Numbered from the stretch's first letter, positions 15,758-64,000 are shown. The stretch is DNA of 64,000 nt from a virus (IMGVR_UViG_3300012662_000013:43405-107404), one strand, 5' to 3'. Program-made: numbers and translations. The notes: a model not told the origin generated them from the letters alone.

Positions 15758-16309
15758 ATGGAGAAATTATGTTAGATTAAGGATACTTTAATAACTTTAG
15801 TCGAATAGCAAATGGCTAATCCTCAATGTGTAAATACACATGAAATGGGAGAAGTTATTGATATGATTAAAGATTTGGCCGAAGCCTGTTATTATGGGTC
15901 AGTCGTAGATGCTATGTTGGAAAATAAGGAAGAGGAAGAAATTTATGGTATTGGTATGATGAAAGACCCTCATAAACGCAAGAATCCATATCCTTATTAT
16001 GTAAATGGGGATTATCGTGAAGATAAATATTATACCAAAGATTACGATGGTGGATACAATGGATACAGTTATACAGGCACAGGCGGAATGAATGATGATA
16101 ATAAAAAAATGGGCCATAGCCCAATGAAACGTAAATCCTATATCGAGAGTAAGGAACGTCATATGGACTAGGCCCTGTAGATGAGAGAGTTAGAAGATTA
16201 TGCACAAGTTCTAACCTCTGATCTTATGGAAATGATTCAGGATGCAACTCCTGAAGAAAAACAATTATTACAAAGAAAGATAGCTACATTGGCTACGAAG
16301 ATTGTATAA
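15758..16309 (+). CDS. Hypothetical Tyr/Gly-rich late protein; 4 in-frame TAG
   Basis: ATG 15758 with aagggtgg upstream. ORF 15812..16171 is the central piece. Ends TAA 16307-16309. Confidence 0.4.
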
Positions 16310-16321
16310 GAATAAGAAATA

Positions 16322-16354
16322 AAGGGAAGCCATTGCTTCCCTTTATTTTTTTTT
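16322..16354. terminator. Bidirectional rho-independent terminator (aagggaagc/gcttccctt) at the convergence of the two modules
   Basis: 9-bp stem, T-run on the + side and A-run on the other side; overlaps the stop of the minus-strand gene. Confidence 0.7.
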
Positions 16355-16754
16355 AGTTTTGAGTTATTTGATTAGAATATTTTTTATGAACTAATTTAAA
16401 CATTTGATCACCCTAATGATTTCCCCCCAAAGCATTATATGCTTCATGGTCACTGTCTATATCAGTATATTCTTCTAAGGTAATAATATGTTCAGGTTCT
16501 AATAATTTCTAACATTTTGAAAGGAATAGCGGCCGCTATAAAGAAAGGATACCTTTTTTAAGAGCTTTTATTTCTTCCTCTTGGAAATCGTGTTTGGTTT
16601 GGATTTCTTCATGAAGTTCATTAAGAATTTTTTCCTATTTCTCTCCATATTCTTTTTTTACCATTTTAAAAAATTTTCTTAAGAACCAACCAAGACCCGC
16701 TATAATTAATCCAAATAATATTTCTAACCAATATTGCAGGATAAATTCTAACAT
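16353..16754 (-). CDS. Small membrane protein (133 aa; N-terminal transmembrane segment plus coiled-coil), 4 in-frame TAG
   Basis: RBS gggagg, ATG 16754, TAA 16353-16355. Not in the ORF track because of the TAGs. Confidence 0.4.
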
Positions 16755-16838
16755 TTATATAATCCTCCCGACATAAAAGTGTCGCTCTTTCTCATTATAA
16801 ATGAAAGTAGAAATTATATAATTGTATAGAATTGCCCG

Positions 16839-17345
16839 TTATTCCCAATTCAATTCATCCTGCTACGATTTAAAATATGCAGTATATAAACATATAGCAT
16901 CACAAACATCATCATTAGCCTATATACCATATGTATCTTTTACATATTTTATATCAAGAGGTTTAAGATTTTCACGTTTAATGCCGCGGCCTGTCTTAAT
17001 ACCTAAATTTTTACGCCATTCGCTAGCCTACATAAATTCTATACTTTTGGAATTTATATTATTATTTACACTATGTGCGCCAAGAACTATAGAACCCTAA
17101 AGCCACATAAGTAATCGGGCAGTGTCTGAATAACCATAAGCTTCTGGATGAACATCTTCAGCAATTAATTTTTCTATATTATATTGTTTTACTAATTCTA
17201 TAATTCCACTTTGTATCTTTTGGATGCGGCTTACATTATTAGAAGAAGATGCGGTAAGTAAACCATATGTAATTAACTTACCTTTATCATCTGATATAGC
17301 ATATCCAGTAGATTTAGTGGATAAGTCTAAAAATAAAAAATTCAT
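16839..17345 (-). CDS. ruvC: RuvC-like Holliday junction resolvase, 4 in-frame TAG
   Basis: N-terminus MNFLFLDLSTKSTGYAI (ORF 17097..17345) continues through TAG to ..DDVCDAICLYTAYF.., ending TAA 16839-16841. Confidence 0.6.
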
Positions 17346-17387
17346 ATAAATCTCCTCCTATTATAGAAGGAGATTATTATTTATTGA

Positions 17388-17936
17388 TTAATTATTAACG
17401 TCCTTGCTTGTGGAGCCAAATCCGCCGATTCTTTCACCTTCAGCTTTATCATCATCCGTAGTAAGATAATTACGGATTACTCCTTGGCCAATAATATCTC
17501 CCTTAGCAATTTCAATATCAAAGGGAGAAAGATTAATTAACTGGAAATAAATGTGTCCCTCATTGTCAGGATTATTATAATAATCAGCATCAATAATGCC
17601 AACTCCATTAGCAAGAATAATCCAATGCTTCAGAGGAAGTGAAGAACGAACAGATAGCTCAAGGAATTGGCCATCTTCCATATGACATTTCATTCCAGTA
17701 GGAACGAGAGTAGGTTTTAATTTAAGTTCTTTGGTAATTTTAGCCATTTCACTTAAAAAAATAATATCATTAGTAGCAGCGCTATTTCTAAAAGCTTCTA
17801 CAATATGCGTATATGAAGGAATTACAACATCTTCTGCTGATGCAAAATCATAGCCTGCACTATACTTTGTTTTGCGCTCAGGCATCGGTAAATCCCAATC
17901 ATTATACTTGCTCACTTTTTCAAAATAAATACTCAT
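17388..17936 (-). CDS. dut: dUTPase (trimeric dUTP diphosphatase)
   Basis: Motifs SAGYDF, RSSL, GIIDADY, GDIIGQGV and RIGGFGSTS. Confidence 0.8.
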   Translation of the reverse strand: MSIYFEKVSKYNDWDLPMPERKTKYSAGYDFASAEDVVIPSYTHIVEAFRNSAATNDIIFLSEMAKITKELKLKPTLVPTGMKCHMEDGQFLELSVRSSLPLKHWIILANGVGIIDADYYNNPDNEGHIYFQLINLSPFDIEIAKGDIIGQGVIRNYLTTDDDKAEGERIGGFGSTSKDVNN

Positions 17937-18211
17937 TAGTTAATTACAGTCTCCCCATCAAAAGTAGCTCTAGTTGTGTAACAAAGTGAAATATGGTCTG
18001 TTGGTTCTTTTTCATCATTGAATTTCTTTACAAGGGTTACTTGATACCATTCATCAATGATTTCGCCTTTCTATTTACGTTCTTTTTTTGTAGAAGAATA
18101 CTTAGCTAAATCATATTCTCTATCCTGCTTAGCATTATTAATAAGTTCAGCAGCTTCTTTTTCTGTATCTACTCTATATACTTCAGTAGTATTAATCAAA
18201 TATTCAAACAT
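17936..18211 (-). CDS. Hypothetical protein (91 aa), one TAG; stop overlaps the dut start (TAATG)
   Basis: RBS ataggag then ATG 18211. Frame is open through one TAG. Confidence 0.4.
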
Positions 18212-18222
18212 ATTTTCTCCTA

Positions 18223-18483
18223 TTAATTTACATAAACTTTAATATTGTTATTACTATATTTAGTTACTAAAGAATTTTCAATAGTTTCTTTAAGTCCTTC
18301 GCCATACGTTTGATTACCGTAAAGATGAATATCACTATCTTTATATTGTTCTGATAACTTAATTAAAGTATCACTAAGATTATCAAGACGGCATGTGCAA
18401 ACCATAGTGGGCTTCTTATCATTCGATCCTTGATAATAAATGATTTGTGTTGTATTAAATAAATCAAAATAAGTAAATAACAT
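18223..18483 (-). CDS. Hypothetical protein
   Basis: Uninterrupted 86-aa ORF ending TAA. Confidence 0.4.
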   Translation of the reverse strand: MLFTYFDLFNTTQIIYYQGSNDKKPTMVCTCRLDNLSDTLIKLSEQYKDSDIHLYGNQTYGEGLKETIENSLVTKYSNNNIKVYVN

Positions 18484-18485
18484 AA

Positions 18486-19001
18486 TTATCTCCCTATTAC
18501 TGGAACAATACCAGCATCATAATCAAATAAATGATAGCAATGAGTTTCATCATTATTTGTAATCCAAATTTCAATTGCACCAGAACCGCTATCATTAATA
18601 TCTTTGATTTGACCTAAATCTTTAATAATATCATAAACAGCAGAAGTCATATTAAGGTAAGGATTATCATTACTTAAGCTATCAGTCTCAAATACTGTAT
18701 AATAATTTAATTCATTACATAAAAGCATAAAATACTTGTTAGAACTTTCTTGAACATAAGTATCAATAACTTCTAATTTTTTATCTATTTCTTCTGGAGT
18801 TAGTTCTTTCATTTGGCTAATTACACATTTATTTAATTCATAATTGCTCATTTTAAAATCGACGCCATCTGATAATACACTCCATTCAGTGCCGGACCAG
18901 ACATAGTTATGAGTATCAGTTGTATTGTAAAATACATCTCCTACTAATGGCTCTTTCTATATAGCTTCTTCTAAAGTAGCAATTTTTCCTCTATATCTCA
19001 T
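18486..19001 (-). CDS. Hypothetical protein (~171 aa), one TAG
   Basis: RBS aaaggag plus ATG 19001; reads through TAG into ORF 18486..18851. Confidence 0.45.
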
Positions 19002-19486
19002 TCATTAATCTCCTTTAAATTTATGATACTTTGATTTTTACTACCTCTCATTGATAATGTAATATCTCTTTGAGATTGGATATAAGGACCGTCAATTAAT
19101 ACATCAGCTTTTTTGAGAATTTCTTGAAGCTTGCCGTTAGTAGTTTGTTTAACTAAATCCTCATAATAATATCCTGTCCAAATATAAATCTTAGTATCAG
19201 GAAGTTTTTCTTTTACTGTATTAATAAGAAGTAGAGTAAGTAATTGATTTTGTTCGCATAATGGTTCACCACCGAGTATACAAAAATCTCTATGAATACC
19301 ATTAATAGTTAATGCTTCAATTATTTTATTTAATGTATCATTGGTAAATTCTTTGCCTCCATTAAAATCCCAAGTTTCAGGATTCTAACACCCAATACAG
19401 TGATTGGGGCATCCCTAGACCCAAAATGATACGTTCACCCCTGGGCCGTTAGCCACATCATTATATTTTAAATTAGCATACTTCAT
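18998..19486 (-). CDS. nrdG: Anaerobic ribonucleotide reductase activating protein (radical SAM), 2 in-frame TAG
   Basis: MKYANLKYNDVANGPGVNVSFWV[TAG]GCPNHCIGC[TAG]NPETWDFNGG, with the CxxxCxxC radical-SAM motif. Confidence 0.75.
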
Positions 19487-19752
19487 TTTATAATCTCCCA
19501 AGAGCAACAATATAAATTACAGCAAGGAATAATTACTTGTTCTAATATTTCTTTATTATTATAATCTTTAGATATTTTTACTTTGTAAAATCTATATCCT
19601 CTAATATTATGTTTTATTGGAAACCATATCCATCGTTCATTATTTTCTTGCCATTCTATATAATTTTTTAATTTTCTAGTCGGTATAATATTATTTTTAT
19701 TTAGATAATTATAAATGTCTTGTAAATTATCTGTTATATAAGTACATATCAC
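19483..19752 (-). CDS. Small hypothetical protein between nrdD and nrdG (start uncertain, GTG)
   Basis: ORF track only; no clear RBS. Confidence 0.25.
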   Translation of the reverse strand: MICTYITDNLQDIYNYLNKNNIIPTRKLKNYIEWQENNERWIWFPIKHNIRGYRFYKVKISKDYNNKEILEQVIIPCCNLYCCSWEIIK

Positions 19753-19826
19753 TATCTAATTAGAACAAGGATATTCTCTTCCTTCCTACTAATTAAAATA
19801 ATTATTTGTCCACTTCATTAAATGAT

Positions 19827-21953
19827 TTATAGATGGCATACTCTATCCCTTATTTCATTAGTTCGACCATGATTCCAGAATTGGGAGCCAATATAGCCGC
19901 AGGTCCTGCGTGCGACATTAAGTGTTTCATGATCTCGATTACCACAATTAGGGCAATACCATTCGAGATTATTATCTATTAAAATTTCTCCATCGTAGCC
20001 ACATTTTTGGCAATAATCAGATTTAGTATTTAATTCAGCGTACATGATATGATTATAAATAAATTGCATTACAGTTTCTACTGCTTCAATATTATTTTGG
20101 AGATTAGGGGTTTCAATGTAACTAATCGCACCTCCTGGACTTAATGCTTGGAATTCAGCTTCAAGAGCCAATTTATTAAAGGCATCAATTTCTTCAAATA
20201 CTGGGACATGGTAACTATTTGTAATGTAATCTCTGTCTTTGCCATCTAGTTTTATAAAAATATCTTTGCCAAAACGCTTTTTAAGACACGTAGCAAATTT
20301 ATATGTTGTACTTTCAATTGGTGAACCATAAACGCTATAAGAAATATTCTCTTTGGCCCGCCATTTATTACAAGCATCATTTAAATGTTGCATAACTTTA
20401 AGCCCAAATGATTTACCGCCTTTGGTATGACTTTCTCCAGTCATATATTTAACACATTCATATAAAGCGGCATAACCGAGAGATAATGTAGAGTAATTAT
20501 CGTGAAGTAATTTATGAATACTTTCACCTTGGTTTAATCTCGCTAATGCGCCATATCGCCATAGTATAGGAGAAACATCTGCCGTGGCATGACTTAATCT
20601 TTCATGTCTGGCCTGCAATGCATGATGACATAGCTCAAGCCGTTCATCAAATAATTCCCAGAATTTAGTATAATCTTTTTTAGAACTAAATGCTATATCT
20701 GCAAGATTAATTGTAACCACTCCCTAGTTAAAGCGACCATAGTATTTATGCTCAATGGGGTCAGGCGTAAGGAATGAACGACATCCCATGCATGGATAAA
20801 CATCACCCTTTAATTCTTTCATTATTTTTTCAGAAATATAATCAGGGACTAAGCGCTTTGCAGTGCATTTGGCGGCGAGCTCAGTAAGATACCAATATTT
20901 TGTACTAGGATAAACATTATCAGGTTCAAGAACATATAAGAGTTTAGGGAAGGCTGGGGTAATATATACTCCTTTTTCATTTTTAAATCCGAGAATACGT
21001 TGATTTAAAAATTCTTCAATAAGCATTGCTAGTTCTTCTTTATATTCATTTGTCTCATTTAAATACATATATACTGATAAAAATGGAGCTTGGCCATTAG
21101 TATTAGTCATAGAATTGGTTTGATAATTAAATGTCTGAACTGCATCAATAATTTCTTTATGCAAATCTTCATTAACATATTTTTCAACCAATTCTTTATC
21201 AAAACCTCTATTTTGGTATTTTTTAATATATCTTTCTTTACTGCTTCTAACAAATGGGGCTAAATGTGTTAATGAAATAGTAGCTCCACCGTAAGAAGAA
21301 GAAGTTACAGCAGCGATAATTTGTGTAGCAATAGTAGTTGCAGTTAGAAGACGATGAGGTTTTTCAATCATTACCCCATTTACCACAGTACCGTTTTGTA
21401 ACATATCTTCTAAGTTAATTAACTCGCAGTTGTGTAATGCATTTTGAGCAAAATAATCTGCATCATGAAAATGGATAATACCTTCATCATGCGCTTTTAC
21501 GATATCTGAATCAAGTAAAAAACGGCGAGTAATATCAGTGCTAACAATACCAGCCATATAATCTCTTTGAACAGTAGTACGTTTAGCATTCTTATTAGAA
21601 TTTTCATTATTCCAATAATCGCTATTGCCTTCTAATAACTCTCTGATAGATTGATCAGTAGTATTAGATTGACGAACCATTTCTTTTTTATATCTATATC
21701 TAATATATGCACGAGCCACATCACGTCGCTCAGATTGCATTAAATAATCTTCAATTAAGTCTTGGATATCTTCTACTTCAATACTGCCATCAGGGCATTT
21801 ACTTATCCAAGATTCAATATCATTGGCGATATCAATAGCTGTATCATTTTCATAAAGCTACCCATCTACTTCTATAAATGCTTTATTAATAGCATTAGTT
21901 ATTTTATTTTTATCAAATAATACAACTGTGCCATCACGTTTAATTATATACAT
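19827..21953 (-). CDS. nrdD: Anaerobic ribonucleoside-triphosphate reductase (class III) with N-terminal ATP-cone; 2 in-frame TAG
   Basis: ATP-cone MYIIKRDGTVVLFDKNKITNAI..., then ORFs 20724..21740 and 19827..20720 joined by a single TAG (20724-20726). C-terminal CPNCG and glycyl-radical RRTCGYIGS motifs. RBS ggagg. Confidence 0.8.
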
Positions 21954-21989
21954 TCATTAACCTCCGCACTAAATATAATAGGAATTTAC

Positions 21990-22460
21990 TTATACATATT
22001 TAGAACTTTTTTCTAAATAACGTTGATAATTTTTATTTAAAATTTTAGGAGTTTTTTCATACCTCAAATTTCCATTTTTATCATTATAATACTAATCTTT
22101 TTCTGACAAATCAGAAATATTATTTTTTGGAGATTGTAAAATAATTATCTATCTGTCTTTGGATGCATTATTTCCGCCTTTAAGCTAATTATATCCATTT
22201 ATTGATTCTAAAGCTGAATATATTTCTATGAATTTTGGTTCTAAATTATTAGCTTCATCTAAAGACAAATTATCAGCTAAAATAATATGTTCAAAATTAT
22301 CCCAGCCATATTCTAGAATGTCTTTATAAAATTCTTTCTATTTAAAGTATCCTTTACCGCTTTTCCATCTTAAATTTGGATTTTTCCCGTGTTTTGTCTA
22401 TCCTATATAAACTTTATGATTTATTAAATTTCTATGTAAATAAATACAATAAATAAGCAA
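21990..22460 (-). CDS. Free-standing GIY-YIG homing endonuclease-like gene (~155 aa), 5 in-frame TAG
   Basis: ..CIYLHRNLINHKVYIG[TAG]TKHGKNPNLRWK.. with TAG at the conserved Q of YIGQT. RBS aaggaggg. Start is TTG or ATT (uncertain). Confidence 0.5.
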
Positions 22461-22519
22461 TCCCTCCTTAAATTTAAAAATATATATACCTATTATATTT
22501 AGTGTTTCTTTATTATAGA

Positions 22520-23104
22520 TTAATCATTCTTGCCTAATTCGGCATACCAAAAATGGTCTGTGATTTCAGCTACAATATTTTTTAAATCATTTCTATCTTC
22601 ATTTACAAATATTTTTACATCATTAAATTTTATATTATTAAAATCTTGTTCATCAGCCGCATAACGTCTAATAATTTCTGGAACGTTGGGTGATTCTTCT
22701 CTATTCAGTTGACGTAATAATCTTTGTTTATCTGAAGCTACAATACCATAAATCTTTAAATCAATTTCTGGAAACGCAGATAAAGCTTTAATTCCAGAAG
22801 GATTAAAGATACCGATATTAAGTTTATTCTTTCTTAAACAGTTAATACCAGTTCCATACCACCAATTATTAAATTGAACATATTCCAGCATTTGATGATT
22901 ATCTATCATTTGTTTAAATTCATTTTCAGTAACAAAATAATAATCTTTTCCTTCAACTTCTCCTTCACGGCCCGGACGAGTAGTGTAAGAAACTATAGAA
23001 TGAACTATAGGATTATTTAATTTTTCTATTTCCTTTAATATGGTGTCTTTGCCTGAACCGGCTTTACCCACTAAGGCGATTAATTTATATTTTTTATTCT
23101 TCAT
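22520..23104 (-). CDS. gmk: Guanylate kinase
   Basis: GKAGSGKDT P-loop, ..TTRPGREGEVEGKDYYFV.. Confidence 0.7.
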   Translation of the reverse strand: MKNKKYKLIALVGKAGSGKDTILKEIEKLNNPIVHSIVSYTTRPGREGEVEGKDYYFVTENEFKQMIDNHQMLEYVQFNNWWYGTGINCLRKNKLNIGIFNPSGIKALSAFPEIDLKIYGIVASDKQRLLRQLNREESPNVPEIIRRYAADEQDFNNIKFNDVKIFVNEDRNDLKNIVAEITDHFWYAELGKND

Positions 23105-26100
23105 CTTCAGCTTCTCCTTGGGAACGGTTATTTCTTAATACTAAATCACCATTAGATTGAATTCCATCAATGTGATAAAGTTGATGTCCGGCTGTTGATG
23201 CATACTTCTTAACAATAAAATCATCTCCAGAACGGATGCCTTGGGCTACAATCATATTACCGCGATTAAACCAAGATTTTTCAATAATTTTTTTAGTTCC
23301 ATCAGGTTGTTTTTGAGAAATTTGTTTGTCAAACAATGTAAAATATTCTTTTCTGAACTTTACATTTACTACTCCTGTTGGAGTAAGAATAGTTACAATA
23401 CTCTTATTCTTATTTTTAGCGATACAAGTGCCGCACAACTTAGAAAGATAATAAATATTTATTGTTTTTCCAGCCTTAATAAAGCTTCTTTCTACGACTG
23501 GGTCTTCTGGAAGTTTATAGAAATCAACAAATCCATATTTACCTTGATTAACTTTTGCTAATTCATGTTCGTGGTAATAGAAACATAATACTTCCATTTC
23601 CCACGCAGAATAATTTACTTTAGGACAATATTTATCCCAATCCATTTTAAATACAATTTCATTTAATTTATTTAAAATTTCTTCTTTATTATCAGCAATT
23701 TGTTTACGATAAACATCCATCCATCCTTGGTAAACCTTATCATTCCAATCCTTAATATTTAAAAAGAAATTAGAATTATTGCTTTGGATTAAGTCATCTT
23801 TATCAATCTTTTGTAAAAATCCAATAGCTCTTTCATCTAGTTTATAATTAACTTTATCATATTTACAAATTTGTTTTAAATAACGAGTAAATTCATAAAT
23901 ATGTAAAGCCTGTTGTCTTTCATCTGTATCTGCTGGAAGAAGATTTAATTTCATTAAAGTAGCTAAATTTTGAAGATTAAGATTTTTCTTTTTATCACAA
24001 GTTTCCCAAATATACCAAGCCATACAAAGTTTTCTATCCATCATATGGTCAAAAGCCCCACCCTTGATAAGAGAAATCATAGCTTGTTTATTAGGATTAA
24101 CTTTATTTAAGAAATCTCTAGGAGAGATATAAGGTCTGTTATCAATAATTGTGCGAACTACATCATCACCAACATTTAGCATACCTTTTAAGCCGAACAG
24201 AATTTGATTATTTTCAACATCAGGGATAAAACTAAATTCTGATTTATTAATATCAGCAAGACTTACTTTAATACCAGCCTTACGAATATCACCAATGGCC
24301 TTAGCAATTTTTCCATAGTCAGTAGAATTAGTTTTTCTTACCTTAGATTTTTTATCAGGTAAATCTTCAAAAGTAACTCCGTTAGCTAAATCATCAGCTT
24401 CTGGATCATAAATATCTACTATTTCTTCTTCACTATTATCTTCTAAAGAACCACTATTGACAATTAAACAAGCACAATTCCAGTAGATAGGATTGTAATG
24501 AATAACAAAATAAATCATTTGAATAGCTACAAATGAATAAGGGAGTGAGTGATTACGTATACTCTGACTATTTCTTACGGACTTTGTAGTGAAAGTGGTA
24601 AATTTTCTCGTCCGCACACCATTTCCAACAACGTGTCAATAGTTGTTGTACTCCAAGTCTAACCTTGGATAGTCGATACAATAGATTAAAAATAAAGTTA
24701 TTTTTTCCTTAAAGGATAATTTAAATTATCTTTTTTATGAGAGCGGCCAGTATTTATATTGGTTACTGTAGATCTTGATTTATTATATTTTTTAGCAATT
24801 TCATTTTGAGTTAAATTAGTATTTAATAAATCATTAATAATTTTATTAACCCAAATTTCATTAGCTTTTTTGTTACATCCTTTTATATATAAAGGATAAG
24901 TTTCATTTTTATCAAAAAAATATCTACCACTATTAATACCAGAAATAAAACCAATACTTTTAATATTAAAATCTTTTGCTATTGTTTTATAAATTTCTCC
25001 AGACTTTATTCTATCTTTAATTTGTTTTATTTCTTCTTTAGAGAAATGGCTTCTATTTATTTCTTTTTTTAAAGGATAATCAAATAAAGGATTTTTAAAA
25101 TTTAACCCGCTATTAATATTTATAAGATATGAATACTTTAAACGTGGAGAATATTTTTTTAAAATTTCATTAAAATCTTTATTGGCTATTAATAAATTCT
25201 GTATATTAATAATTTCATTTCCAGTAAATAGTTTTGAAGATTGTAATTTTTCTTTATAAGTTTTTTCCTTCGGAGAAAATCCTTGTCCTCCTTGAGAAAC
25301 ATTATATCCATTTAAAGAAATTAAACTTTGATATTGTTCTATATAATATTTTTCTTTATCATCTATATAATTTTGGTCTTTACTATCATCAATTTCTTCT
25401 AATATAATAAAATCAAAATTATTTAATCCATATTTTCTAATAGCATTATGGAATGGTATATTATAATCATTTGATTTAGGATTAAAAGAACAACTTTTAT
25501 GTCCATTTTTTCTTTTTTGGATATTATTTGTTTGACCAATATAAATCTTCCCATTTATTTTATTTTCGTATTTATATATATATTTCATTTTTGCACCTCC
25601 TTATAATCTATTTCTACTTTTAATCTATCACGAGATTTTACCCTCGTTAGCAATTAATTTTATAATACTACCAATATTATAATGTAAATTAATTACCCCT
25701 ATGACGAATAGGTTAAGTGTGTAAGCCCCAATCTCTCAAGGCTAAAAGCATATCCTAACTGCGGTGCTACTGCTGTTTCCCAAAAATATTCTGCATCACT
25801 TTTATTATTAAAACGACTAAATACCTGTTCCTTTAATTGAGGAATCTTAGCCATTTGTTTTTTAGCAACAACTTTACGTGCTGAGTTAGCTTCACCTAAT
25901 GTAAAATGAGCTATATCCATAAGGATTTCCATCATTTGTTCTTGTAAAGGGCAACAACCATAATATTTATCACAGTGTTTATGAAATTTATTAATAAGTT
26001 CTTGAGGCAAATGATGTTGTTTCATTTCTTGATCAAAGGCTTGGATACCTTGGTGTTGAATTCGATAAAATCTATCTTGTTGTGATTCTTTACCTTTTTC

Positions 26101-29139: not shown

Positions 29140-29206
29140 ATATATATTATTTCCTTATAACAACTAATTTTTTACTGGCTCTAGTAATACCAGTATATAA
29201 ATATTT

Positions 29207-46284: not shown

Positions 46285-46339
46285 AAGTTATGTCCCTTTC
46301 TTTATTTATATTATATTAAAATATTTTTTTAAAAGCAAA

Positions 46340-46639
46340 TCAAATTTTAAATTGCATTAAACTATCTAAACATTCTGCGATATATTTTCCAAAAGGAGAT
46401 TTAGAACAATTAATAAAGACCTCGTGTTTTTCAGGAGACTCAAATAAAATTTGTCTTTCATTATTATCATACCAGCAGATAGACCAAGGCTCGATAGATA
46501 CTATTTCTTCTTTACCTAAATAATTTTTTACATTCAAAAATTCAATATCGTTTTTATAACTTTCTGGATGCTTATATTCATAATCATCGCACAAATGTCT
46601 AAAATCATAATCTTTATAAATAATTTTTATTCTTTTCAT
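46340..46639 (-). CDS. Hypothetical protein
   Basis: 99-aa ORF. Confidence 0.35.
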   Translation of the reverse strand: MKRIKIIYKDYDFRHLCDDYEYKHPESYKNDIEFLNVKNYLGKEEIVSIEPWSICWYDNNERQILFESPEKHEVFINCSKSPFGKYIAECLDSLMQFKI

Positions 46640-46649
46640 TTTACGCCTT

Positions 46650-52414: not shown

Positions 52415-52983
52415 TTTTCAGGATTATCAATACGATATTTACGAACTAACTGATTATAAGTTCCTCTAAGGAATTCTTCATTTAAAATGGCTTTTGGATT
52501 AGTATGATATTTTTTAAGAAAGACAAATACTACATCTACAAATTCTTTAACTACAGGATGCATTAAAACGTGTTTACGTTTTTCAAGCCACCATTTGTAT
52601 TCTGCTGAATAAGTGAATTTAGAACCCATATAAGCTCTCGCCGCACCTAAGTAATCACAAACCATTTCTACACAATCCTTATAGGGCATAAGAATTGCAT
52701 TAGGATGTCCATCACCAATGTTATCAATCCAATATTCCCAATGATGTGTATTGCGGCCTTTATGATGTTGCCAAGCTTCACTATATCCATTCTTATCTTT
52801 GCAGTTGTCTATTGGACTTCTATCGCCAGTCCAATATTTACAGCTTTCTTTAAATTCAATACTAGAGAATTTAGATAAATCATGTTTTAAACCCCGCCAA
52901 GGGATACCAGCCATTTTACAATATCTATTAACCCATTTCTTATGAGTTAAGACAGTCTTCAAATGGTTGAAGTAATTCATCAA
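52390..52983 (-). CDS. His-rich hypothetical protein (possible metal-dependent hydrolase)
   Basis: KHD..HHKGRNTHHWEYW.. The start may be an internal Met. Confidence 0.3.
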   Translation of the reverse strand: MMNYFNHLKTVLTHKKWVNRYCKMAGIPWRGLKHDLSKFSSIEFKESCKYWTGDRSPIDNCKDKNGYSEAWQHHKGRNTHHWEYWIDNIGDGHPNAILMPYKDCVEMVCDYLGAARAYMGSKFTYSAEYKWWLEKRKHVLMHPVVKEFVDVVFVFLKKYHTNPKAILNEEFLRGTYNQLVRKYRIDNPENWQKGPSL

Positions 52984-53701: not shown

Positions 53702-54160
53702 TCAAATGCCGTAATCCATATCTAACTCTTCAGCATTCTAACTATCAGTATAAACTGTTAAATTGGTTGTCGAGGTAGAACTAGATGAAGAAGTAGAAGT
53801 CTAATTATTTTTAATTAATTCTTTAATAACTTCATTAAAATCAGTATTATTAGTATAAGTCATATCTAAATATTTTTCTAACTAAGCATCTAATTCTTTC
53901 ATTACAGTATCATATTTAATACCACCTTTTGTATTTTCAAGCATACTTTTTTTATAATAAAATACTTGGCTAACTCCATAAGCCGCCCATGGTAAGGAAG
54001 CTGAGGCAGTTATCCAAGGTAAAGAACCTGTATAATCTCCTTTAATACAAAAGAATGCTAAAGCAATATACAGAAGACTAGTTATCCATATAAGAGCTGA
54101 TTCTTGAATAAGCAGCCCTTTTGAATATTCCCGTTTTGGTTTCTTCTATTTAATATACAT
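53702..54160 (-). CDS. Putative holin / small membrane protein next to the endolysin (~152 aa, 2 transmembrane segments), 4 in-frame TAG
   Basis: RBS aaaggagaaatg. Transmembrane segments ALIWITSLLYIALAFFCI and WITASASLPWAAYGVSQVFYY. Immediately downstream of the endolysin. Confidence 0.4.
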
Positions 54161-54180
54161 TTCATTTCTCCTTTTGGAGA

Positions 54181-56528: not shown

Positions 56529-59072
56529 ACATTTGTTCTGCTAATTCAGCAATTTTAGAACGATGAATTTGTTTTAATTCAACTTCACCATATATATTAT
56601 TATTACGTAATACCTCTGATGCACGACGCATACCATTATTTAATCCAGAAAAATTAATATCATCAACCTGAGTTTTTAAATCGCCGTCGATAATACAAAT
56701 ACTATCTTCGCCAATACGTTGAAGGCTTAATTTCATAAGGCCAATATCCATATTCTACGCTTCTGAGATATAAATACCTGCACGCATACCTGTTGTGTCA
56801 TAACCACGAATATCTGATAAGGGTAGCAAAACTAATTTATTTTCATCAATTAATTTTTCCACCATCATTTTATCTCCAAGCTTACTACTTAATAGATTAC
56901 CGATTTGGCTATCTAAAAGTTTTTCATCACGAGTGCCGGGGTAAACAAAACTTTATAACTTTCATTATAAAACTGACTATATCTTAATTTAAACTATTTT
57001 TTAAAGCAAGATAAATATTATGTTTGCGCTTTAAGAATCTCGGACAATTGTTGTATAAAATATCTAAAATATGAAGAACTTGTAAACGTCCTCGCCATTG
57101 TGTGTGCCAAGCACTGGTATAGAAATTTTTATTCTTTTTTTCAATTCCTGTTAAAGAATTTATTAAATTCTAAAAATCTATCACTTCTGTTTCGTGGTAA
57201 GCGGTATAATTAATAGAGACATCTGTACTATGATTAGAACTACAATATAAAGAACCATCTCCATCAAAAAGGCCTAAAGCAAATGCCGGTTGGAATTCTA
57301 AAGGAATTTTTTCATATGGAATATGGTTTACATTATAAGTTTTTTTAGGAATAATATTATAATTAGCTAAATCCTAAAAAATTTGTTCATCAGTAAATTC
57401 TATTGAACAACAAGTACTATTAGGACGAATATTATAAATTATTTTACAATCTAATTGTAAATCTTCTTTAAACTTTTCTAATATCTCTTTGTCACATTCC
57501 TGTAGCTATAATCTAATACGTCCTGTTGTTTTTAATTTATCAACACAGCCATCAGTAAATAAAAAACCTAACCAGTAAGCTTTTTCTGGTTTATCTATAA
57601 TAGAAAAATAATTACTATTAATACGTCGATTGACTCTATTTAATGTTTTTAATTCAAGATTCATTTCAGACATTAAATTTTTGATAGTTTCTTCTGAGGC
57701 ATTAAAATATTTAGCAATATCTTTTAAAAAAGAACCTTTATTTAACATTTCTTTAAGTTCTTTTTTTTGCTCTAATGACCATTCTCTTTTTTTTCTTCCA
57801 CCTCTAATAGTAATATTATTCTCTTTCAGAAGTTTATTTATTTGTCGTCTATTAAAAGAGGGATATTCTATTAATAATTTATTAATTGAATATCCATTTA
57901 GATATTTTTTTATAATTTCTTCTTTCAAACTTATTCCTCTTTTATTATATATATAAAATTTTAAGGCATAAGTTTTTCAGTTCTTGTCCAAAATTTTTCA
58001 GTTTAAATCCCTTGCGCTTCGGCCTAAGCCTACTCTACTTACTTCCACTGTATAGTGTGCTTTCGATAGTCGATGAGCCTTTCCCTATTCGGGACTTGGT
58101 TGCTGATTGTCCAATCCAATTAATTTTTAAACATTCACACTTCGATTTATTTCATTCGTATGTTGTAGTTTAATCGGCTCTAAGGGTGTTCCAGCAATTC
58201 ACAAGGTTTTACTTGAGCCTTACCCTTTAAATTAACCCAAGTTTTGCGGAATTTTTAGTAGCAACAGTATTACAAAATACAATTATTTTATCAATTTTAT
58301 TTCTTTCAAGAGCATTTAATAAAAATGCTAATGATAAAAATGTTTTACCTGAGCCGGCTGGCCCTTTAATCATAGTAATTTTATTATTTAAAAAGCTATC
58401 AACAGCTAAAGCTTGATAAGGATCATTTTTAAAGGGTTTTACATTACCAAAATAGGTAGAATTTAAATTACCATAAGAAATAGTTCTATATGTATCACCA
58501 TCCCATACTATTTTGTCTATTATTTCTTTCTCTTGGTTATAAATAATAGCGTATTGGTTAATTAATAAATTAAATTTATTAATTTTTAAATTTTGATATA
58601 GTTCAATAATTTCATCTTCATTTAAACTTACTTCAATATATCCGCTATATGGGTCATGACGTTCTTCCTCAATAGATGATACATTTGATAAAAATAATTT
58701 AGCAATACATTTTAAAGTTAAATCATTAGTAATAAAATTATCAATAGGATGGCTCTTATTATTTTTATTATAACTTAATGCAGTTGCTAATATTTTCATA
58801 TCATTAGTTATTGATAAATCATATTTTCGTATAGGTTTTATCATTTTTTCTTTATAGATAATTACTTGACATAAGTCAGGGTTATCATTTAAAGCTCTTA
58901 ATAACTAACGAGCAGTATATTTTGTATTAGCATCTTTATTAGCTGATGTTTTAATATTTTCTAACTCATCTAATGTAATAGATGAAATTATAATCTATTC
59001 ATTTTTATCTTCCAATAAAGTTCCCTTAGTTAATAAACTACAAGTGTCATAAAAATTATATATCATCTTCAT
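56527..59072 (-). CDS. phoH: PIN-domain plus PhoH-like ATPase (YlaK-type) split by a group I intron; TAG at the Q of DEAQN
   Basis: N-terminal PIN domain (..FYDTCSLL..ITLDELENIK.., 2 TAG), PhoH Walker A GPAGSGKTFLSLA (ORF 58227..58844 ends ..NSAKLG). Exon 2 from ~56949: FVYPGTRDEKL..YISEA[TAG]NM..KLSLQRIGEDSICIIDGDLKTQVD.. (ORF 56527..56751). Confidence 0.65.
56950..58235 (-). mobile_element. Group I intron in phoH carrying a double-motif LAGLIDADG homing endonuclease gene
   Basis: The exon-1 frame hits TAA 2 codons after KLG. 58040-58230 is structured non-coding sequence with a gatagtcgat-like core. Confidence 0.5.
56984..57928 (-). CDS. LAGLIDADG homing endonuclease (~314 aa; AYWLGFLFTDGCV and LGLFDGDGSL), 3 in-frame TAG
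   Basis: ORF 57506..57928 (TTG start, RBS aagagga) continues through TAG to TAA 56984-56986. N-terminal HTH resembles that of the dnaB-intron endonuclease. Confidence 0.6.
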
Positions 59073-59957: not shown

Positions 59958-59958
59958 T

Positions 59959-60870: not shown

Positions 60871-60872
60871 AT

Positions 60873-62171: not shown

Positions 62172-62178
62172 AAATTAT

Positions 62179-62421
62179 TTACTCCTTTATCTCTATAAAA
62201 AAATTTGGTAAATCTACATCAATAACATTACTTTTTAAAATATTATATTTTTGTTTAAATTTAGAAGTAGAGATACCAGCTTTTTTATACTAATCTACAT
62301 ATTTATTTAAATAATAAAAATCAAAAGAAAATAAAAATCTCGTTTTTAAAATGTCTTTTAAATATTCTTCTCGAACGAACTAATAAATATCTTCTGAAGA
62401 AACATTAATTCTTTTAATCAT
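62179..62421 (-). CDS. Small protein (80 aa) upstream of the rSAM gene, 2 TAG (possible partner/recognition protein)
   Basis: RBS aaaggag plus ATG 62421. Ends TAA just before the rSAM RBS. Confidence 0.35.
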
Positions 62422-62547
62422 TTATTTACTCCTTTTTCACTATATTCTTTATTTATATTAAAATTATAAAATATAGAGTAAATCTAAATTGCCCTTTTTA
62501 TATAAAAAATTGCCTAGGACGGACAATTCCAAATCTCGGTCGTTATT

Positions 62548-62588
62548 GGATACAAAAAAAAATAAGTAAGGGATTTAAATCCCTTACT
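62548..62588 (-). terminator. Rho-independent terminator (aagtaagggatt/aatcccttactt plus T9)
   Basis: 12-bp stem directly after the flotillin stop, then TTTTTTTTT. Confidence 0.75.
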
Positions 62589-62590
62589 TA

Positions 62591-63973
62591 TTACTTCTTC
62601 AGATAATTACCAAGAACTTCCTTCAAATTAATACCTGTTGCTTCAGAAAGACCATTCATAATTTTATCTGCTGTCTGCATTACATCAGACACAAGCTTGG
62701 TGTTTCCACCTTCACCATAAACGGTAATCTTATCAACATTATTAAGAGGTTCAGCGGCATTTTTAACAACTTCAGGCAATGCCTTGAGATACATTTCAAG
62801 GACGGAAGCTTCGCCCATCTTCTTCTGAGCTTCAGCTTTCTTTTCGATAGCAGATGCTTCTGCTTCACCAACTGCGGCAATACCAGCAGCCTTCTGTTCG
62901 GCAGCATACTTTTCTGCTTCTGCTCTAGCCTTCATAGCTCGTGCTTCCTGCTCCATTTCATAAGCTTTAGCTTCTGCTTCCTTCTGACGCTTAATCAGAT
63001 TTGCAGCAGCCTGCTGTTCAGCAGCATACTTATCAGCATCAGCCTGCTTACGAACAAGAGCATCAAGTTCATATTCCTTCAGCTGAATCTGCTTCTGCTT
63101 CAACTCAGCTTCGCGTTCTGCCTTAGCGATATTAGCATCAGTAGCTGCTACATCACGAAGCTTACGCTGATTCTCAGCCTCAATGCTTGCCGCAGCATCA
63201 GCTTGGGCCTGGCGAGTATCAGCTTCCTGCTTCAACTGAGCCTGCTTAATAGCAAGGTCATTGTTGCGAGTAGCCATATCTTCAGCAGCCTTAACTCGTG
63301 CGTCATTAGCTTCTTTATTATTGGCAGCTTCAGCAATCGCAATTTCACGTTGAGCGTTAGACTTTGCAATCATTGCATCCTTACGAATCTGTTCAACATT
63401 GTCAATACCGAGATTGGTAATTACATCATTATCATCAGAGAAATTCTGAACATTAAATGTAATTAATTCAAGACCCAACTTCGCCAAATCCGGCACACTA
63501 TTTTCCTGGACTCTCATGGAGAATTCCTTGCGGTCATTAATCATCTGAACAAGCCCAAGAGTGCCAACAATCTCACGCAAGTTACCTTCAAGGAGGTCAT
63601 TAACCTTATTCATAATTTCATCATGCTTTGCATTAAGGAAGTTCTGTGCGGCGACTTCAATCAATTCAGGCGTCTGACTAATTTTAACAATCGCGGTTGC
63701 ATCTACTTTAATATTAATGAAATCATTAGTAGGAATAGATGTTTTTGTTTTTACATCAATCTGCATTGCCTTGAGCGAAAGCTTATCAATCCTTTCAAGG
63801 AATGGAACTCGCAATCCTGACTTACCTACGACAATTCTTGGATTTTTACACAAACCTGATACAATATAAGCTACATCAGGCGGAGCTTTAAAATATCCAA
63901 GTCCAATGATAACACCGACGAGAATTACTCCAAGAATAATCCAAATGTGAGACAAAATTGCTGACAAAATCAT
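62591..63973 (-). CDS. SPFH/band-7 flotillin-like membrane protein (YqiK/FloT-like) in a ~45-48% GC island; no TAG codons
   Basis: N-terminal transmembrane segment, SPFH domain, then a long Ala/Glu/Lys-rich coiled-coil (..AEQKAAGIAAVGEAEASAIEKKAEAQKK..). RBS aaggag. Base composition is distinct from the ~28% GC flanks. Confidence 0.7.
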   Translation of the reverse strand: MILSAILSHIWIILGVILVGVIIGLGYFKAPPDVAYIVSGLCKNPRIVVGKSGLRVPFLERIDKLSLKAMQIDVKTKTSIPTNDFINIKVDATAIVKISQTPELIEVAAQNFLNAKHDEIMNKVNDLLEGNLREIVGTLGLVQMINDRKEFSMRVQENSVPDLAKLGLELITFNVQNFSDDNDVITNLGIDNVEQIRKDAMIAKSNAQREIAIAEAANNKEANDARVKAAEDMATRNNDLAIKQAQLKQEADTRQAQADAAASIEAENQRKLRDVAATDANIAKAEREAELKQKQIQLKEYELDALVRKQADADKYAAEQQAAANLIKRQKEAEAKAYEMEQEARAMKARAEAEKYAAEQKAAGIAAVGEAEASAIEKKAEAQKKMGEASVLEMYLKALPEVVKNAAEPLNNVDKITVYGEGGNTKLVSDVMQTADKIMNGLSEATGINLKEVLGNYLKK

Positions 63974-64000
63974 TTTATATTCTCCTTAATATTTAATTTT

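What the first reader, a model, noticed from the sequence alone, without database searches (positions are those of the whole stretch)
16300..64000. Amber codons reach early and middle genes and almost every homing endonuclease, but the core replisome is TAG-free
TAG counts:
- nrdD 2, nrdG 2, ruvC 4, recJ-like ~9, phoH 3, sak4-like 3, thyX 2.
- Homing endonucleases 3-8 each, except the dnaE-intron one, which has 0.
- dnaE exon 1 (860 codons), gyrA-like (793), gyrB-like exon 1 (509), ligase (369), helicase body, RNase H, dUTPase and the GC-rich flotillin have none.

This graded pattern suggests a temporal switch. Replisome genes are translatable before any suppressor is active, while nucleotide-salvage, recombination, homing and virion genes are licensed later. 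It would also time intron homing to late infection.
Basis: seen in the sequence. Interest (0 to 1): 0.6.

Follow-up and report, generated by a model that had tools for sequence, protein, structure and literature searches.

The report
Amber-free replisome in TAG-recoded phage
This is part of a ~150 kb human-gut phage that reads the stop codon TAG as glutamine, yet keeps TAG out of its DNA polymerase, gyrase, ligase, RNase H and primase genes. The pattern is real, statistically strong and repeated across a whole phage family, but it fits a model of stop-codon recoding that is already published.

Summary

- **Code:** TAG encodes Gln here (code 15).
- **This window:** On the minus-strand arm, six core replication genes (DnaE, GyrA, GyrB, ligase, RNase H, primase) have 0 TAG in 3,656 codons and 121 Gln codons. 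The TAG share of Gln codons is 37% in homing endonucleases, 41% in RecJ/RuvC/Sak4 and 45% in the virion arm.
- **Controls:** Length, Gln content, out-of-frame TAG and protein conservation do not explain the difference.
- **Relatives:** In 66 TAG-recoded related loci the same six genes carry 40 TAG in 3,944 Gln codons, against 1,756 in 9,058 for other genes. These loci span at least four recoded lineages. The published phage phAss-1, analysed separately, shows the same contrast.

- DnaB (2 TAG), the SF1 helicase (1) and a YorF-like protein (1) are not TAG-free.
- The TAG-free class also includes non-replisome genes.
- RecJ has 11 TAG, not about 9.
- "thyX" is not confirmed.
- The TAG-free dnaE-intron endonuclease has orthologues at the same site in standard-code relatives.

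The temporal-switch reading is plausible. Relatives carry a tRNA(CUA) about 15 kb upstream. It is untested, and it is essentially the model of Borges et al. This is a new member of a known kind.

The parts
23097..28281 (-). DnaE-type DNA polymerase III alpha. Exon 1 is 25738-28281 and exon 2 is 23097-24554. It has 0 TAG in 1,334 codons and 55 Gln codons. The single TAG the ORF scan shows at 25699-25701 lies in the intervening sequence.
   Evidence: Pfam PHP, DNA_pol3_alpha, finger and HHH_6 domains. Uninterrupted orthologues in L001-L007 fix the junction.
24701..25588 (-). GIY-YIG homing endonuclease inside the dnaE intervening sequence. It has 0 TAG in 11 Gln codons.
   Evidence: Pfam GIY-YIG. 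Orthologues 60% identical sit at the same dnaE site in standard-code relatives L010-L012, L018, L020-L022, L026 and L029.
45178..52980 (-). Contiguous TAG-free block: DUF5662, RNase H, GyrB-like (exons 50401-51924 and 48976-49398), GyrA-like (46653-48983), a small ORF, and ATP-dependent DNA ligase (45178-46284). The only TAGs in it are 5 in the gyrB-intron GIY-YIG endonuclease (49545-50252).
   Evidence: Pfam and counts. A terminator-like site lies upstream at 53354-53327 and a perfect TTGACA-17-TATAAT lies just downstream at 45178-45150. These are consensus matches only.
33220..35332 (-). DNA primase, exons 34562-35332 and 33220-33555, with 0 TAG in 11 Gln codons. It is split by a GIY-YIG endonuclease (33681-34394, 3 TAG).
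   Evidence: PHROG 47 DNA primase. Junction from uninterrupted relatives.
35553..38192 (-). DnaB-like replicative helicase, exons 37482-38192 and 35553-36398, with 2 TAG, both at conserved Gln columns. It is split by a LAGLIDADG endonuclease (36647-37435, 5 TAG).
   Evidence: Pfam DnaB_C and PHROG 19. Aligned residues are Gln in 13/14 and 14/14 orthologues.
31466..33205 (-). RecJ-like exonuclease with 11 TAG in 23 Gln codons. Its start overlaps the primase stop.
   Evidence: Pfam DHH and RecJ_OB. Family-wide it has 239 TAG in 667 Gln codons, with at least one TAG in all 41 recoded loci. phAss-1 has 6 in 25.
16842..17345 (-). RuvC-like Holliday junction resolvase with 4 TAG in 8 Gln codons. It is the second-to-last gene of the arm.
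   Evidence: PHROG 827 and 159. Its orthologue is the only recoded gene of the replication arm in L009 (8 of 13 Gln codons) and carries 7 of 9 in L040.
29150..30322 (-). SF1 (UvrD/PIF1-type) helicase with 1 TAG in 19 Gln codons. It is not TAG-depleted in relatives (43 in 193).
   Evidence: Pfam AAA_30 and UvrD_C_2.
17391..23104 (-). Nucleotide-metabolism genes: guanylate kinase (0 TAG), NrdD (2), NrdG (2) and dUTPase (0). Together they have 4 TAG in 41 Gln codons, which is intermediate.
   Evidence: Pfam. In the earlier gene models this class (6/51) did not differ significantly from the replisome class (P = 0.08).
53705..55200 (-). Lysis genes on the replication arm: a CHAP+Amidase_2 endolysin (54184-55200, 2 TAG) and a two-transmembrane holin-like protein (53705-54160, 4 TAG in 6 Gln codons).
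   Evidence: Pfam. Family-wide shares are 23% and 37%. The holin assignment is inferred from the hydrophobic stretches read in the sequence (no prediction was run) and the position only.
56530..59072 (-). PIN-PhoH gene, exons 58233-59072 and 56530-56946, with 3 TAG. It is split by a LAGLIDADG endonuclease (56987-57928, 3 TAG). The insertion is bounded by exon-terminal T and insertion-terminal G.
   Evidence: Pfam. Clean junction against L053.
62594..63973 (-). Flotillin/SPFH gene with 0 TAG and GC 41%. Its Gln codons are 23 CAG and 2 CAA, a usage foreign to this genome. It is the last gene of a TAG-poor block that continues beyond the window.
   Evidence: Pfam Band_7 and Flot. The upstream block in L188 has 4 TAG in 99 Gln codons.
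2..16309 (+). Convergent plus-strand arm of very large unannotated (presumably virion or tail) proteins. It has 104 TAG, 106 CAA and 21 CAG, so TAG is 45% of Gln codons.
   Evidence: No Pfam hits. A bidirectional terminator-like hairpin at 16314-16351 separates the arms.

Best explanation
**What it is.** The window is one third of a phage of about 153 kb from gut metagenomes. The phage has Firmicutes-type ribosome-binding sites and SPbeta-like replication genes. It decodes TAG as glutamine using a phage-borne tRNA(CUA).

**Two classes of gene.**
- In most genes TAG behaves as a freely exchangeable Gln codon and has drifted to about the same frequency as CAA. That is what AT-biased mutation predicts along the chain CAA<->CAG<->TAG.
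- A defined set of genes is kept almost free of TAG by purifying selection. It includes DnaE, GyrA/GyrB, ligase, RNase H and primase, and also an upstream block of non-replication genes ending in flotillin.

**Most likely reason.** These products must be made in a standard-code host cell before the suppressor has built up, or regardless of it. TAG-bearing genes are translated in full only once suppression is effective. These include virion, holin/endolysin, RuvC resolvase, RecJ and the homing endonucleases. The gate acts on translation, not transcription, because the two classes are interleaved and sometimes overlap.

**Shown versus inferred.**
- Shown: TAG encodes Gln. The avoidance is gene-specific. 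It recurs in several recoded lineages. A suppressor tRNA is present in relatives.
- Inferred: that selection is acting, and that the reason is timing.
For: - **TAG encodes Gln**.
- **Core genes in the window.** The six core genes have 0 TAG in 121 Gln codons. The arm-wide TAG share is 20%, so the probability of zero is about 1e-12 (my arithmetic from the numbers).
- **Heterogeneity.** No simulation out of 20,000 reached the observed statistic.
- **Not composition.** Out-of-frame TAG density and Gln content are equal across classes.
- **Not protein conservation.** The Spearman correlation is -0.27 (P = 0.25). RecJ and the SF1 helicase are both about 48% identical to the standard-code relative L004, yet have 11/23 and 1/19 TAG.
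- **Family-wide.** Core genes carry 40 TAG in 3,944 Gln codons against 1,756 in 9,058 elsewhere. Of 66 recoded loci, 57 reach P < 0.01 and 43 have no TAG at all in core genes.
- **Recoded lineages are scattered among standard-code ones** on the DnaE tree: the window clade, L025, L023 and L040. Each shows the same contrast.
- **Published phAss-1.** Replisome 0 in 105, RecJ 6 in 25, virion 15 in 53.
- **Virion arm near equilibrium.** TAG 104, CAA 106, CAG 21. This matches the neutral expectation that TAG and CAA are equally frequent, so lack of time does not explain the TAG-free genes.
- **Suppressor tRNA.** A tRNA(CUA) lies in a syntenic tRNA cluster about 15 kb upstream of flotillin, on the same strand, in L177, L178, L182, L193, L195 and L196.
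- **Rare TAG stops.** TAG terminates only 16 of 341 orthologous genes in standard-code relatives, as in the evolutionary route proposed by Borges et al..
Against: - No expression data exist for this phage, so timing is an inference.
- The DnaB-like helicase (2 TAG), the YorF-like protein (1) and Sak4 (3) need suppression. The phage replisome as a whole is therefore not independent of the suppressor.
- TAG-rich genes lie immediately next to the suppressor tRNA on both sides in L177. One is an 883-codon ORF with 14 TAG. Order along the arm does not track TAG content.
- Sigma-70-like promoter matches are no more frequent than in shuffled sequence. Similar -10-like motifs precede both classes.
- The suppressor was not retrieved from the window's own genome, and four syntenic relatives (L180, L181, L194, L197) show no tRNA(CUA) in the syntenic cluster (L180's locus covers it only partly).
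- TAGs show no bias toward the N-terminus, which a designed gate might produce (P = 0.08).
Confidence: 0.6

Rival explanations
1. Constant cost of read-through, with no timing involved. Suppression of TAG competes with host release factor 1 throughout infection, so each TAG lowers the yield of full-length protein. Selection removes TAG from genes whose full-length yield or accuracy matters most, and tolerates it elsewhere. This would produce a graded pattern rather than a two-state one.
For: - The pattern really is graded. Family-wide TAG shares are about 0-2% for GyrA, GyrB, RNase H, ligase, DnaE and the primase N-terminal exon (4% for its second exon); about 5-15% for DnaB, Sak4 and YorF-like; and 20-47% for SF1 helicase, endolysin, RecJ and RuvC.
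- The two classes are interleaved within apparent operons.
- DnaB carries TAG.
Against: - Virion proteins of 860-1,150 codons carry 16-21 TAGs each. Any appreciable termination per TAG would abolish them, so suppression must be efficient at least when they are made.
- Length does not predict avoidance. RNase H (158 codons) is TAG-free in 49 of 49 recoded loci, whereas RuvC (168 codons) has 47% TAG.
Confidence: 0.2
2. Portability or recent import. Replication genes are frequently exchanged by recombination with the many standard-code members of the same family. Only TAG-free alleles work in both backgrounds, so these genes stay TAG-free or keep arriving that way.
For: - Standard-code and recoded members are intermingled on the DnaE tree.
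- The genome is a mosaic. NrdD is 27-32% identical to most relatives but 54% to L027. Against the same close relatives (L051-L056), ligase is 81-83% identical and GyrA 94-95%.
- The TAG-free dnaE-intron endonuclease has its closest orthologues in standard-code relatives.
- Flotillin has foreign codon usage.
Against: - DnaE of the window clade is monophyletic at 79-96% identity and stays at 0-1 TAG throughout. Over the same span RecJ keeps 7-14 TAG.
- Avoidance is uniform for GyrA across 50 recoded loci at 35-95% identity (5 TAG in 1,123 Gln codons). Repeated import struggles to explain that.
- Gene-tree incongruence was not tested formally.
Confidence: 0.12
3. Chance, or a by-product of gene length, base composition or glutamine content.
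For: Small genes taken alone (dUTPase, RNase H, guanylate kinase, DUF5662) are not individually significant (P 0.2-0.5).
Against: - No simulation out of 20,000 reached the observed heterogeneity statistic.
- Fisher P = 3e-14 for replisome against the rest of the arm.
- Out-of-frame TAG density and total Gln fraction are equal across classes.
- The pattern is replicated in 57 of 66 related recoded loci.
Confidence: 0.01

Closest known systems
Alternatively coded (code 15 / code 4) gut phages of Borges et al. (crAss-like, Agate, Jade, Sapphire, Lak; bioRxiv 10.1101/2021.08.26.457843)
   Same: - A stop codon is reassigned in phages of standard-code hosts, with a suppressor tRNA.
- Structural and lysis genes use the recoded stop.
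- The DNA replication machinery is in standard code in the crAss-like and Agate examples.
- A group I intron endonuclease in an early gene is preferentially recoded, and was proposed to be delayed to late infection.
- Codes are mixed within clades, and TAG stops are rare in standard-code relatives.
   Different: - Here the recoded and non-recoded genes are interleaved gene by gene within one co-directional replication arm, not separated into modules.
- The endolysin and holin-like genes sit in that arm.
- RuvC and RecJ, not only lysis genes, are the consistently recoded genes of the arm.
- Whether this family belongs to one of their named clades was not tested, because no terminase tree was made.
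phAss-1 / proposed Phassvirus and its wider group (Babkin et al. 2023, PMC10607447)
   Same: - Human-gut phages of about 130-140 kb that read TAG as Gln.
- Their suppressor tRNA(CUA) genes lie on the replication arm.
- Their wider group also holds standard-code members, Enterococcus phage EF1 among them.
- phAss-1 is the best DnaE match in the phage collection, at 40% identity.
- Its replisome is TAG-free and its RecJ is recoded.
   Different: - The relationship is distant: 40% DnaE identity, and GC 44.5% against 29%.
- The window phage has many endonuclease-bearing insertions.
- The gene-by-gene contrast between replisome and RecJ/RuvC was not analysed in that paper. It notes only that recoded ORFs are mostly virion genes plus several DNA-processing enzymes.
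SPbeta-like Bacillus and Enterococcus phages with a DnaE-type polymerase (YorL)
   Same: Replication module with DnaE (37-40% identity), YorF-like and YorH-like proteins, and a DnaE split by a homing endonuclease in Enterococcus phages EF1 and EF5.
   Different: Babkin et al. found no stop-codon recoding in Enterococcus phage EF1; the SPbeta-like Bacillus phages were not checked here, and I know of no recoding in them. The similarity covers the replication proteins only.

Membership tests
Code-15 (TAG to Gln) alternatively coded phage | In-frame TAG codons inside conserved protein-coding genes | tested here: met
   There are 223 in-frame TAGs in the 76 ORF models. ORF coverage rises from 43 kb to 69 kb when TAG is read as sense.
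Code-15 (TAG to Gln) alternatively coded phage | TAG positions align with glutamine in standard-code homologues | tested here: met
   Gln is 26.6% of aligned residues against a 3.7% background. Gln columns in RecJ, DnaB and NrdG are invariant.
Code-15 (TAG to Gln) alternatively coded phage | Phage-encoded suppressor tRNA with anticodon CUA | tested here: inconclusive
   The window has none. One is present in a syntenic tRNA cluster in six relatives at roughly 85-95% identity. It is absent from that cluster in four others. That part of the window's own contig could not be fetched.
Code-15 (TAG to Gln) alternatively coded phage | Partial use of the alternative code: some genes are standard-code compatible, while structural and lysis genes are recoded | tested here: met
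   22 of 64 minus-strand ORFs have no TAG. The virion arm has a 45% TAG share and the holin-like gene 4 of 6.
Code-15 (TAG to Gln) alternatively coded phage | Host uses the standard code, and the code switch happens during infection | not testable with these tools
   The host is unknown. Strong AAGGAGG ribosome-binding sites suggest Firmicutes. No expression data are available.
Group I intron carrying a homing endonuclease | An insertion that interrupts a conserved gene at a precise point and is absent from close relatives | tested here: met
   Six genes (dnaE, gyrB, primase, dnaB, phoH and a GIY-YIG-domain gene) are uninterrupted in relatives 92-96% identical. The joined exons are in frame with no stops.
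Group I intron carrying a homing endonuclease | Exon 1 ends in U and the intron ends in G | tested here: inconclusive
   This is clear for the phoH insertion (..GGGTT | ... TTTTG |). The other junctions are ambiguous by 1-25 nt in the blastn alignments.
Group I intron carrying a homing endonuclease | Conserved group I catalytic core (Rfam RF00028) | tested here: not met
   There is no Rfam match at gathering score or at E up to 0.5 anywhere in 16000-64000. A core split by the endonuclease ORF may escape the model.
phAss-1-related phage group (Babkin et al. 2023) | Shared signature proteins and synteny with phAss-1 | tested here: inconclusive
   The following have homologues in phAss-1 at 27-41% identity: DnaE, GyrA/B, ligase, RecJ, Sak4, NrdD/G and PhoH. 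Both phages have two convergent arms. No terminase or whole-proteome tree was made.

The most novel reading that the evidence does not exclude
In this phage family, selection sorts individual genes into two translation classes: those that must work before the code switch and those left to depend on it. The sorting is independent of operon structure, and the same sorting has arisen repeatedly each time a lineage adopted TAG as Gln. RuvC resolvase and RecJ are the first genes of the replication arm to be recoded; in L009, RuvC is the only one. The family holds standard-code, minimally recoded and heavily recoded members side by side. It would therefore be a natural series for reconstructing, step by step, how a genetic-code switch spreads through a genome, and for reading each gene's timing requirement directly from its TAG share.
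Probability: 0.4. Interest if true: 0.6.

Novelty: new member of a known kind. Interest (0 to 1): 0.4.

Why it matters
- **Gene calling.** With the standard code, about a third of the coding sequence here fragments. JGI's gene calls for the near-identical (99.9%) contig are visibly fragmented.
- **Support for a published model.** The finding gives a clean, quantitative and replicated example for the idea that stop-codon recoding separates genes a phage must express in a standard-code cell from genes that can wait for its own suppressor.
- **Extensions.** Avoidance of the recoded stop looks like the selected state. A high TAG share looks like the neutral state. Resolvase and RecJ behave like late genes.
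- **Limit.** It does not change the current picture of phage recoding.

Tried and rejected
- **Protein conservation as the cause.** Rejected: no significant correlation, and RecJ against the SF1 helicase is a counter-example.
- **Conserved-Gln columns only.** Same direction (replisome 2/34, others 7/35) but too few sites (P = 0.15). Variable columns give P = 4e-6.
- **N-terminal placement of TAG as a designed gate.** Not significant (P = 0.08).
- **Class-specific promoters.** Sigma-70-like matches are no more frequent than in shuffled sequence. An ATATAATAT-like motif precedes both classes. Terminator-like hairpins are about twice as frequent as in shuffles, and they suggest transcription units that mix the two classes.
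- **Rfam search for group I/II introns in the window.** No match.
- **ThyX identity of ORF 41335-41979.** No support from Pfam, PDB sequences or PHROGs.
- **Suppressor region of the window's own contig.** The one metagenome scan returned only relatives.
- **Suppressor tRNA as a recent copy of the phage's tRNA-Gln(UUG).** Not supported: about 60% identity, no more than to other tRNAs. Two unrelated tRNA(CUA) sequences occupy the same site in different relatives.
- **tRNAs near the replication genes.** None in the window or in any of the 173 IMG/VR loci fetched around dnaE, gyrA, ligase and flotillin, apart from two distant ligase-search loci (L123, L131) that carry ordinary tRNAs and no tRNA(CUA).

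Full report
**What the window is.** The sequence is AT-rich (about 29% GC) and contains no tRNA gene. Genes run on the plus strand up to about 16.3 kb and on the minus strand from there to the end, and the two arms converge on a bidirectional terminator-like hairpin at 16314-16351. Strong AAGGAGG ribosome-binding sites precede most genes. Window 35175-56284 is 100% identical to an ENA metagenome contig of 152,763 bp (ERZ808263 NODE_2). It is 99.9% identical to contigs of 148-193 kb from other samples. One related contig is labelled as human gut metagenome.

**TAG is read as glutamine.** Treating TAG as sense raises the total length of ORFs of at least 100 aa from 43.0 kb to 69.1 kb. Treating TGA as sense gives only 51.2 kb. 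I aligned window proteins with orthologues from standard-code relatives. Residues opposite window TAGs are Gln in 26.6% of cases, against a 3.7% background. Columns in RecJ, both halves of DnaB, and NrdG are nearly or entirely Gln. TAG+CAA+CAG together make up 3.3-4.4% of codons in every gene class. All gene models end in TAA (61) or TGA (15).

**Annotation.**
- Replication: DnaE-type polymerase, GyrA-like, GyrB-like, ATP-dependent ligase, RNase H, DnaB-like helicase, primase, SF1 helicase.
- Recombination: RecJ-like, Sak4-like (AAA_24), RuvC-like resolvase.
- Nucleotide metabolism: NrdD, NrdG, dUTPase, guanylate kinase.
- Other: PIN-PhoH, a CHAP+Amidase_2 endolysin, a flotillin, a radical SAM enzyme.
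- Eight homing endonucleases: six GIY-YIG and two LAGLIDADG.

It has no ThyX, Pfam or PDB match.

**Split genes.** Six genes are interrupted by endonuclease-bearing insertions: dnaE, gyrB, primase, dnaB, phoH, and a gene that itself ends in a GIY-YIG domain.
- Relatives 92-96% identical carry uninterrupted versions, which fixes the junctions. The joined exons are in frame and free of stops.
- This matters for counting. The one TAG in the "dnaE exon 1" ORF and the two in the "primase exon 2" ORF lie in the intervening sequences.
- Rfam finds no group I or II intron anywhere in the arm, even at E up to 0.5.
- The phoH insertion does show the exon-terminal U and insertion-terminal G typical of group I introns.

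**The observation, checked.** Exon-accurate counts are.
- The six core genes (DnaE, GyrA, GyrB, ligase, RNase H, primase) have 0 TAG in 3,656 codons and 121 Gln codons.
- The whole replisome class, which adds DnaB (2), SF1 helicase (1) and a YorF-like protein (1), has 4 TAG in 163 Gln codons (2.5%).
- Other classes on the arm: nucleotide metabolism 4 in 41 (10%), lysis-related 6 in 25, unclassified genes 47 in 189 (25%), homing endonucleases 32 in 86 (37%), and RecJ/Sak4/RuvC 18 in 44 (41%).
- The plus-strand virion arm has 104 in 231 (45%).
- Replisome against the rest of the arm gives Fisher P = 3e-14.
- No random allocation of TAGs out of 20,000 reached the observed heterogeneity, per Gln codon or per codon.
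- Out-of-frame TAG density is the same in all classes.

The small TAG-free genes are not significant one by one.

**Protein conservation is not the explanation.** TAG share does not correlate with identity to a standard-code relative (Spearman -0.27, P = 0.25). RecJ and the SF1 helicase are equally diverged (about 48%), yet have 11/23 and 1/19 TAG. The depletion has the same direction at conserved Gln columns (2/34 against 7/35, not significant) and at variable columns (5/99 against 47/175, P = 4e-6).

**The pattern belongs to a whole family.** IMG/VR holds a large family of 95-200 kb contigs with these genes.
- Some members use the standard code and some use TAG as sense.
- On a DnaE tree, recoded lineages are scattered among standard-code ones: the window clade, L025, L023 and L040.
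- Over 66 recoded loci, the six core genes carry 40 TAG in 3,944 Gln codons (1.0%). The other orthologous genes carry 1,756 in 9,058 (19.4%). The contrast reaches P < 0.01 in 57 loci, and 43 have no TAG at all in core genes.

Family-wide TAG counts gene by gene:

| Gene | TAG / Gln codons |
|---|---|
| GyrA | 5 / 1,123 |
| GyrB | 2 / 542 |
| RNase H | 0 / 134 |
| Ligase | 7 / 671 |
| DnaE | 6 / 527 |
| Primase | 21 / 681 |
| Sak4 | 31 / 690 |
| DnaB | 105 / 1,031 |
| SF1 helicase | 43 / 193 |
| Endolysin | 33 / 146 |
| RecJ | 239 / 667 |
| RuvC | 35 / 75 |

- The SF1 helicase is therefore not a TAG-avoiding gene in relatives.
- In L009 the RuvC orthologue is the only recoded gene of the replication arm (8 of 13 Gln codons). 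In L040 it carries 7 of 9.
- The published relative phAss-1 (DnaE 40% identical, GC 44.5%) shows replisome 0/105, RecJ 6/25 and virion 15/53.

**Which state needs explaining.** This step is my inference. Single-base synonymous paths run CAA<->CAG<->TAG. Under AT-biased mutation, the neutral expectation is that TAG and CAA are about equally frequent and CAG is rare. The virion arm shows exactly this (104, 106, 21). TAG-rich genes therefore look unconstrained and at equilibrium. The TAG-free genes are the ones under selection. The equilibrium also argues that lack of time since recoding does not explain them.

**A suppressor is available.** The window has no tRNA. Neither do the loci around dnaE, gyrA, ligase and flotillin in any recoded relative. 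Walking upstream of flotillin in relatives found a tRNA cluster on the same strand, about 15 kb upstream. It contains a tRNA with anticodon CUA in L177, L178, L182, L193, L195 and L196, but not in L180, L181, L194 or L197. Two unrelated tRNA(CUA) sequences occupy this site in different relatives. Neither resembles the neighbouring tRNA-Gln(UUG) more than it resembles other tRNAs. I could not fetch this region from the window's own contig.

**How far the temporal reading goes.** The two classes are interleaved. In transcription order:
- a TAG-poor block that starts beyond the window and ends in flotillin (4 TAG in 99 Gln codons in the 99.9% identical contig);
- a TAG-bearing block (radical SAM, Cys-rich protein, PhoH, endolysin, holin-like);
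- a TAG-free block from DUF5662 to ligase;
- then a mixture.

The primase stop overlaps the start of RecJ (0 against 11 TAG). Terminator-like hairpins suggest transcription units that mix the classes. Promoter-like matches are uninformative. Any gating must therefore act during translation.

The genes that avoid TAG are ones needed to start replication. The genes that accept it include virion and lysis genes and a resolvase. In well-studied phages, to my knowledge, such resolvases act on branched DNA before packaging.

On the other side, DnaB needs two read-throughs, so the phage replisome is not independent of the suppressor. The TAG-free set also includes many non-replication genes. TAG-rich genes flank the suppressor tRNA on both sides. 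TAGs are not concentrated near gene starts.

**The endonucleases.** Seven of eight have a TAG share like that of virion genes (Fisher P = 0.25 for endonucleases against the virion arm). That is what unconstrained genes resident in recoded genomes would show. It would also delay their translation if the gate exists. The gyrB-intron endonuclease is 97% identical to one in recoded relatives L056/L065, and the primase-intron one is 80% identical to one in recoded L023. The TAG-free dnaE-intron endonuclease has 60%-identical orthologues at the same dnaE site in standard-code relatives. The closest recoded relatives lack that intron. Where it came from is the simpler explanation for the exception.

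**Comparison with what is known.**
- Borges et al. described partial use of alternative codes in phages of standard-code hosts. They reported standard-code replication genes in their crAss-like and Agate examples and variable use elsewhere, with recoded structural and lysis genes.
- They also reported a preferentially recoded group I intron endonuclease that they expected to be produced only late, mixed codes within clades, and depletion of TAG stops in standard-code relatives. In the present family's standard-code members, TAG terminates 16 of 341 orthologous genes.
- Babkin et al. described phAss-1 and its wider group, including TAG encoding Gln and tRNA(CUA) genes. They noted that recoded ORFs are mostly virion genes plus several DNA-processing enzymes.

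What this analysis adds:
- the gene-by-gene quantification;
- its recurrence across several recoded lineages of one family;
- the behaviour of RuvC and RecJ;
- the argument that avoidance, not enrichment, is the selected state.

**Verdict.** This is a new member of a known kind, of moderate interest.

Noticed in passing
window 42275-44502 (minus strand): A coiled-coil gene that ends in a GIY-YIG nuclease domain is itself split, inside that domain, by another GIY-YIG homing endonuclease (42651-43544). Relatives at 92% identity have the gene uninterrupted.
   Followed up: partly
window 23097-59072, six sites: Six endonuclease-bearing insertions are present in this phage (dnaE, gyrB, primase, dnaB, phoH and the GIY-YIG-domain gene) and absent from 92-96% identical relatives. 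None gives an Rfam intron match. A seventh splits the DUF2828 gene just beyond the window end (L188:1416-4087).
   Followed up: partly
L177:3676-4263 and L177:5495-5607 (relative, about 15 kb beyond the window end): A full-length ROOL RNA (320 bits) and a RAGATH-33 RNA lie in the tRNA cluster. ROOL is immediately upstream of the suppressor tRNA(CUA).
   Followed up: partly
window 59962-62171 (minus strand): A radical SAM enzyme (6 TAG) is followed directly by a 303-codon protein whose N-terminal half is a run of Cys-Ser-Gly-rich repeats (CSGDCSSCTGDCSSCTGSC...). The pairing resembles a peptide-maturase and substrate pair.
   Followed up: no
window 62594-63973 and L188:137-9988: The flotillin gene has foreign codon usage (GC 41%, 23 CAG to 2 CAA). 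It follows genes for an MVP-shoulder (vault-like) protein of 823 aa, a DUF2828/DUF7788 protein, NADAR, two metallophosphatases and an SLH protein. All of these are nearly TAG-free.
   Followed up: partly
L009:12818-13429; L040:18785-19252: In two otherwise barely recoded replication arms, the RuvC-like resolvase is heavily recoded (8 of 13 and 7 of 9 Gln codons are TAG). This suggests it is among the first genes to take up TAG outside the virion module.
   Followed up: partly
L177:5222-5296 versus L182:4493-4567: Two unrelated tRNA(CUA) sequences (57% identity) occupy the same position in the tRNA cluster of closely related phages. This implies replacement or independent origin of the suppressor.
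   Followed up: partly
window 19830-21953: NrdD is only 27-32% identical to the NrdD of most family members but 54% to that of L027, although neighbouring genes are much more similar. This looks like a gene replacement.
   Followed up: no
window 13498-14194 (plus strand): Two small Gln-rich proteins have 13-18% Gln codons and the highest TAG density in the window (5.6 and 7.7 per 100 codons).
   Followed up: no
window 45150-45178 (minus strand); 28318-28346; 41298-41326: A perfect TTGACA-17-TATAAT lies directly after the ligase stop, ahead of TAG-bearing genes. DnaE and the TrmB-like gene share an extended -10 motif, ATGATATAATATTTA.
   Followed up: no
L183 and L187 versus L184 and L188: JGI's gene calls for the 99.9% identical contig are fragmented by TAG. 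For example, the endolysin is called as 74- and 109-residue pieces. The ENA-derived calls read through TAG.
   Followed up: no
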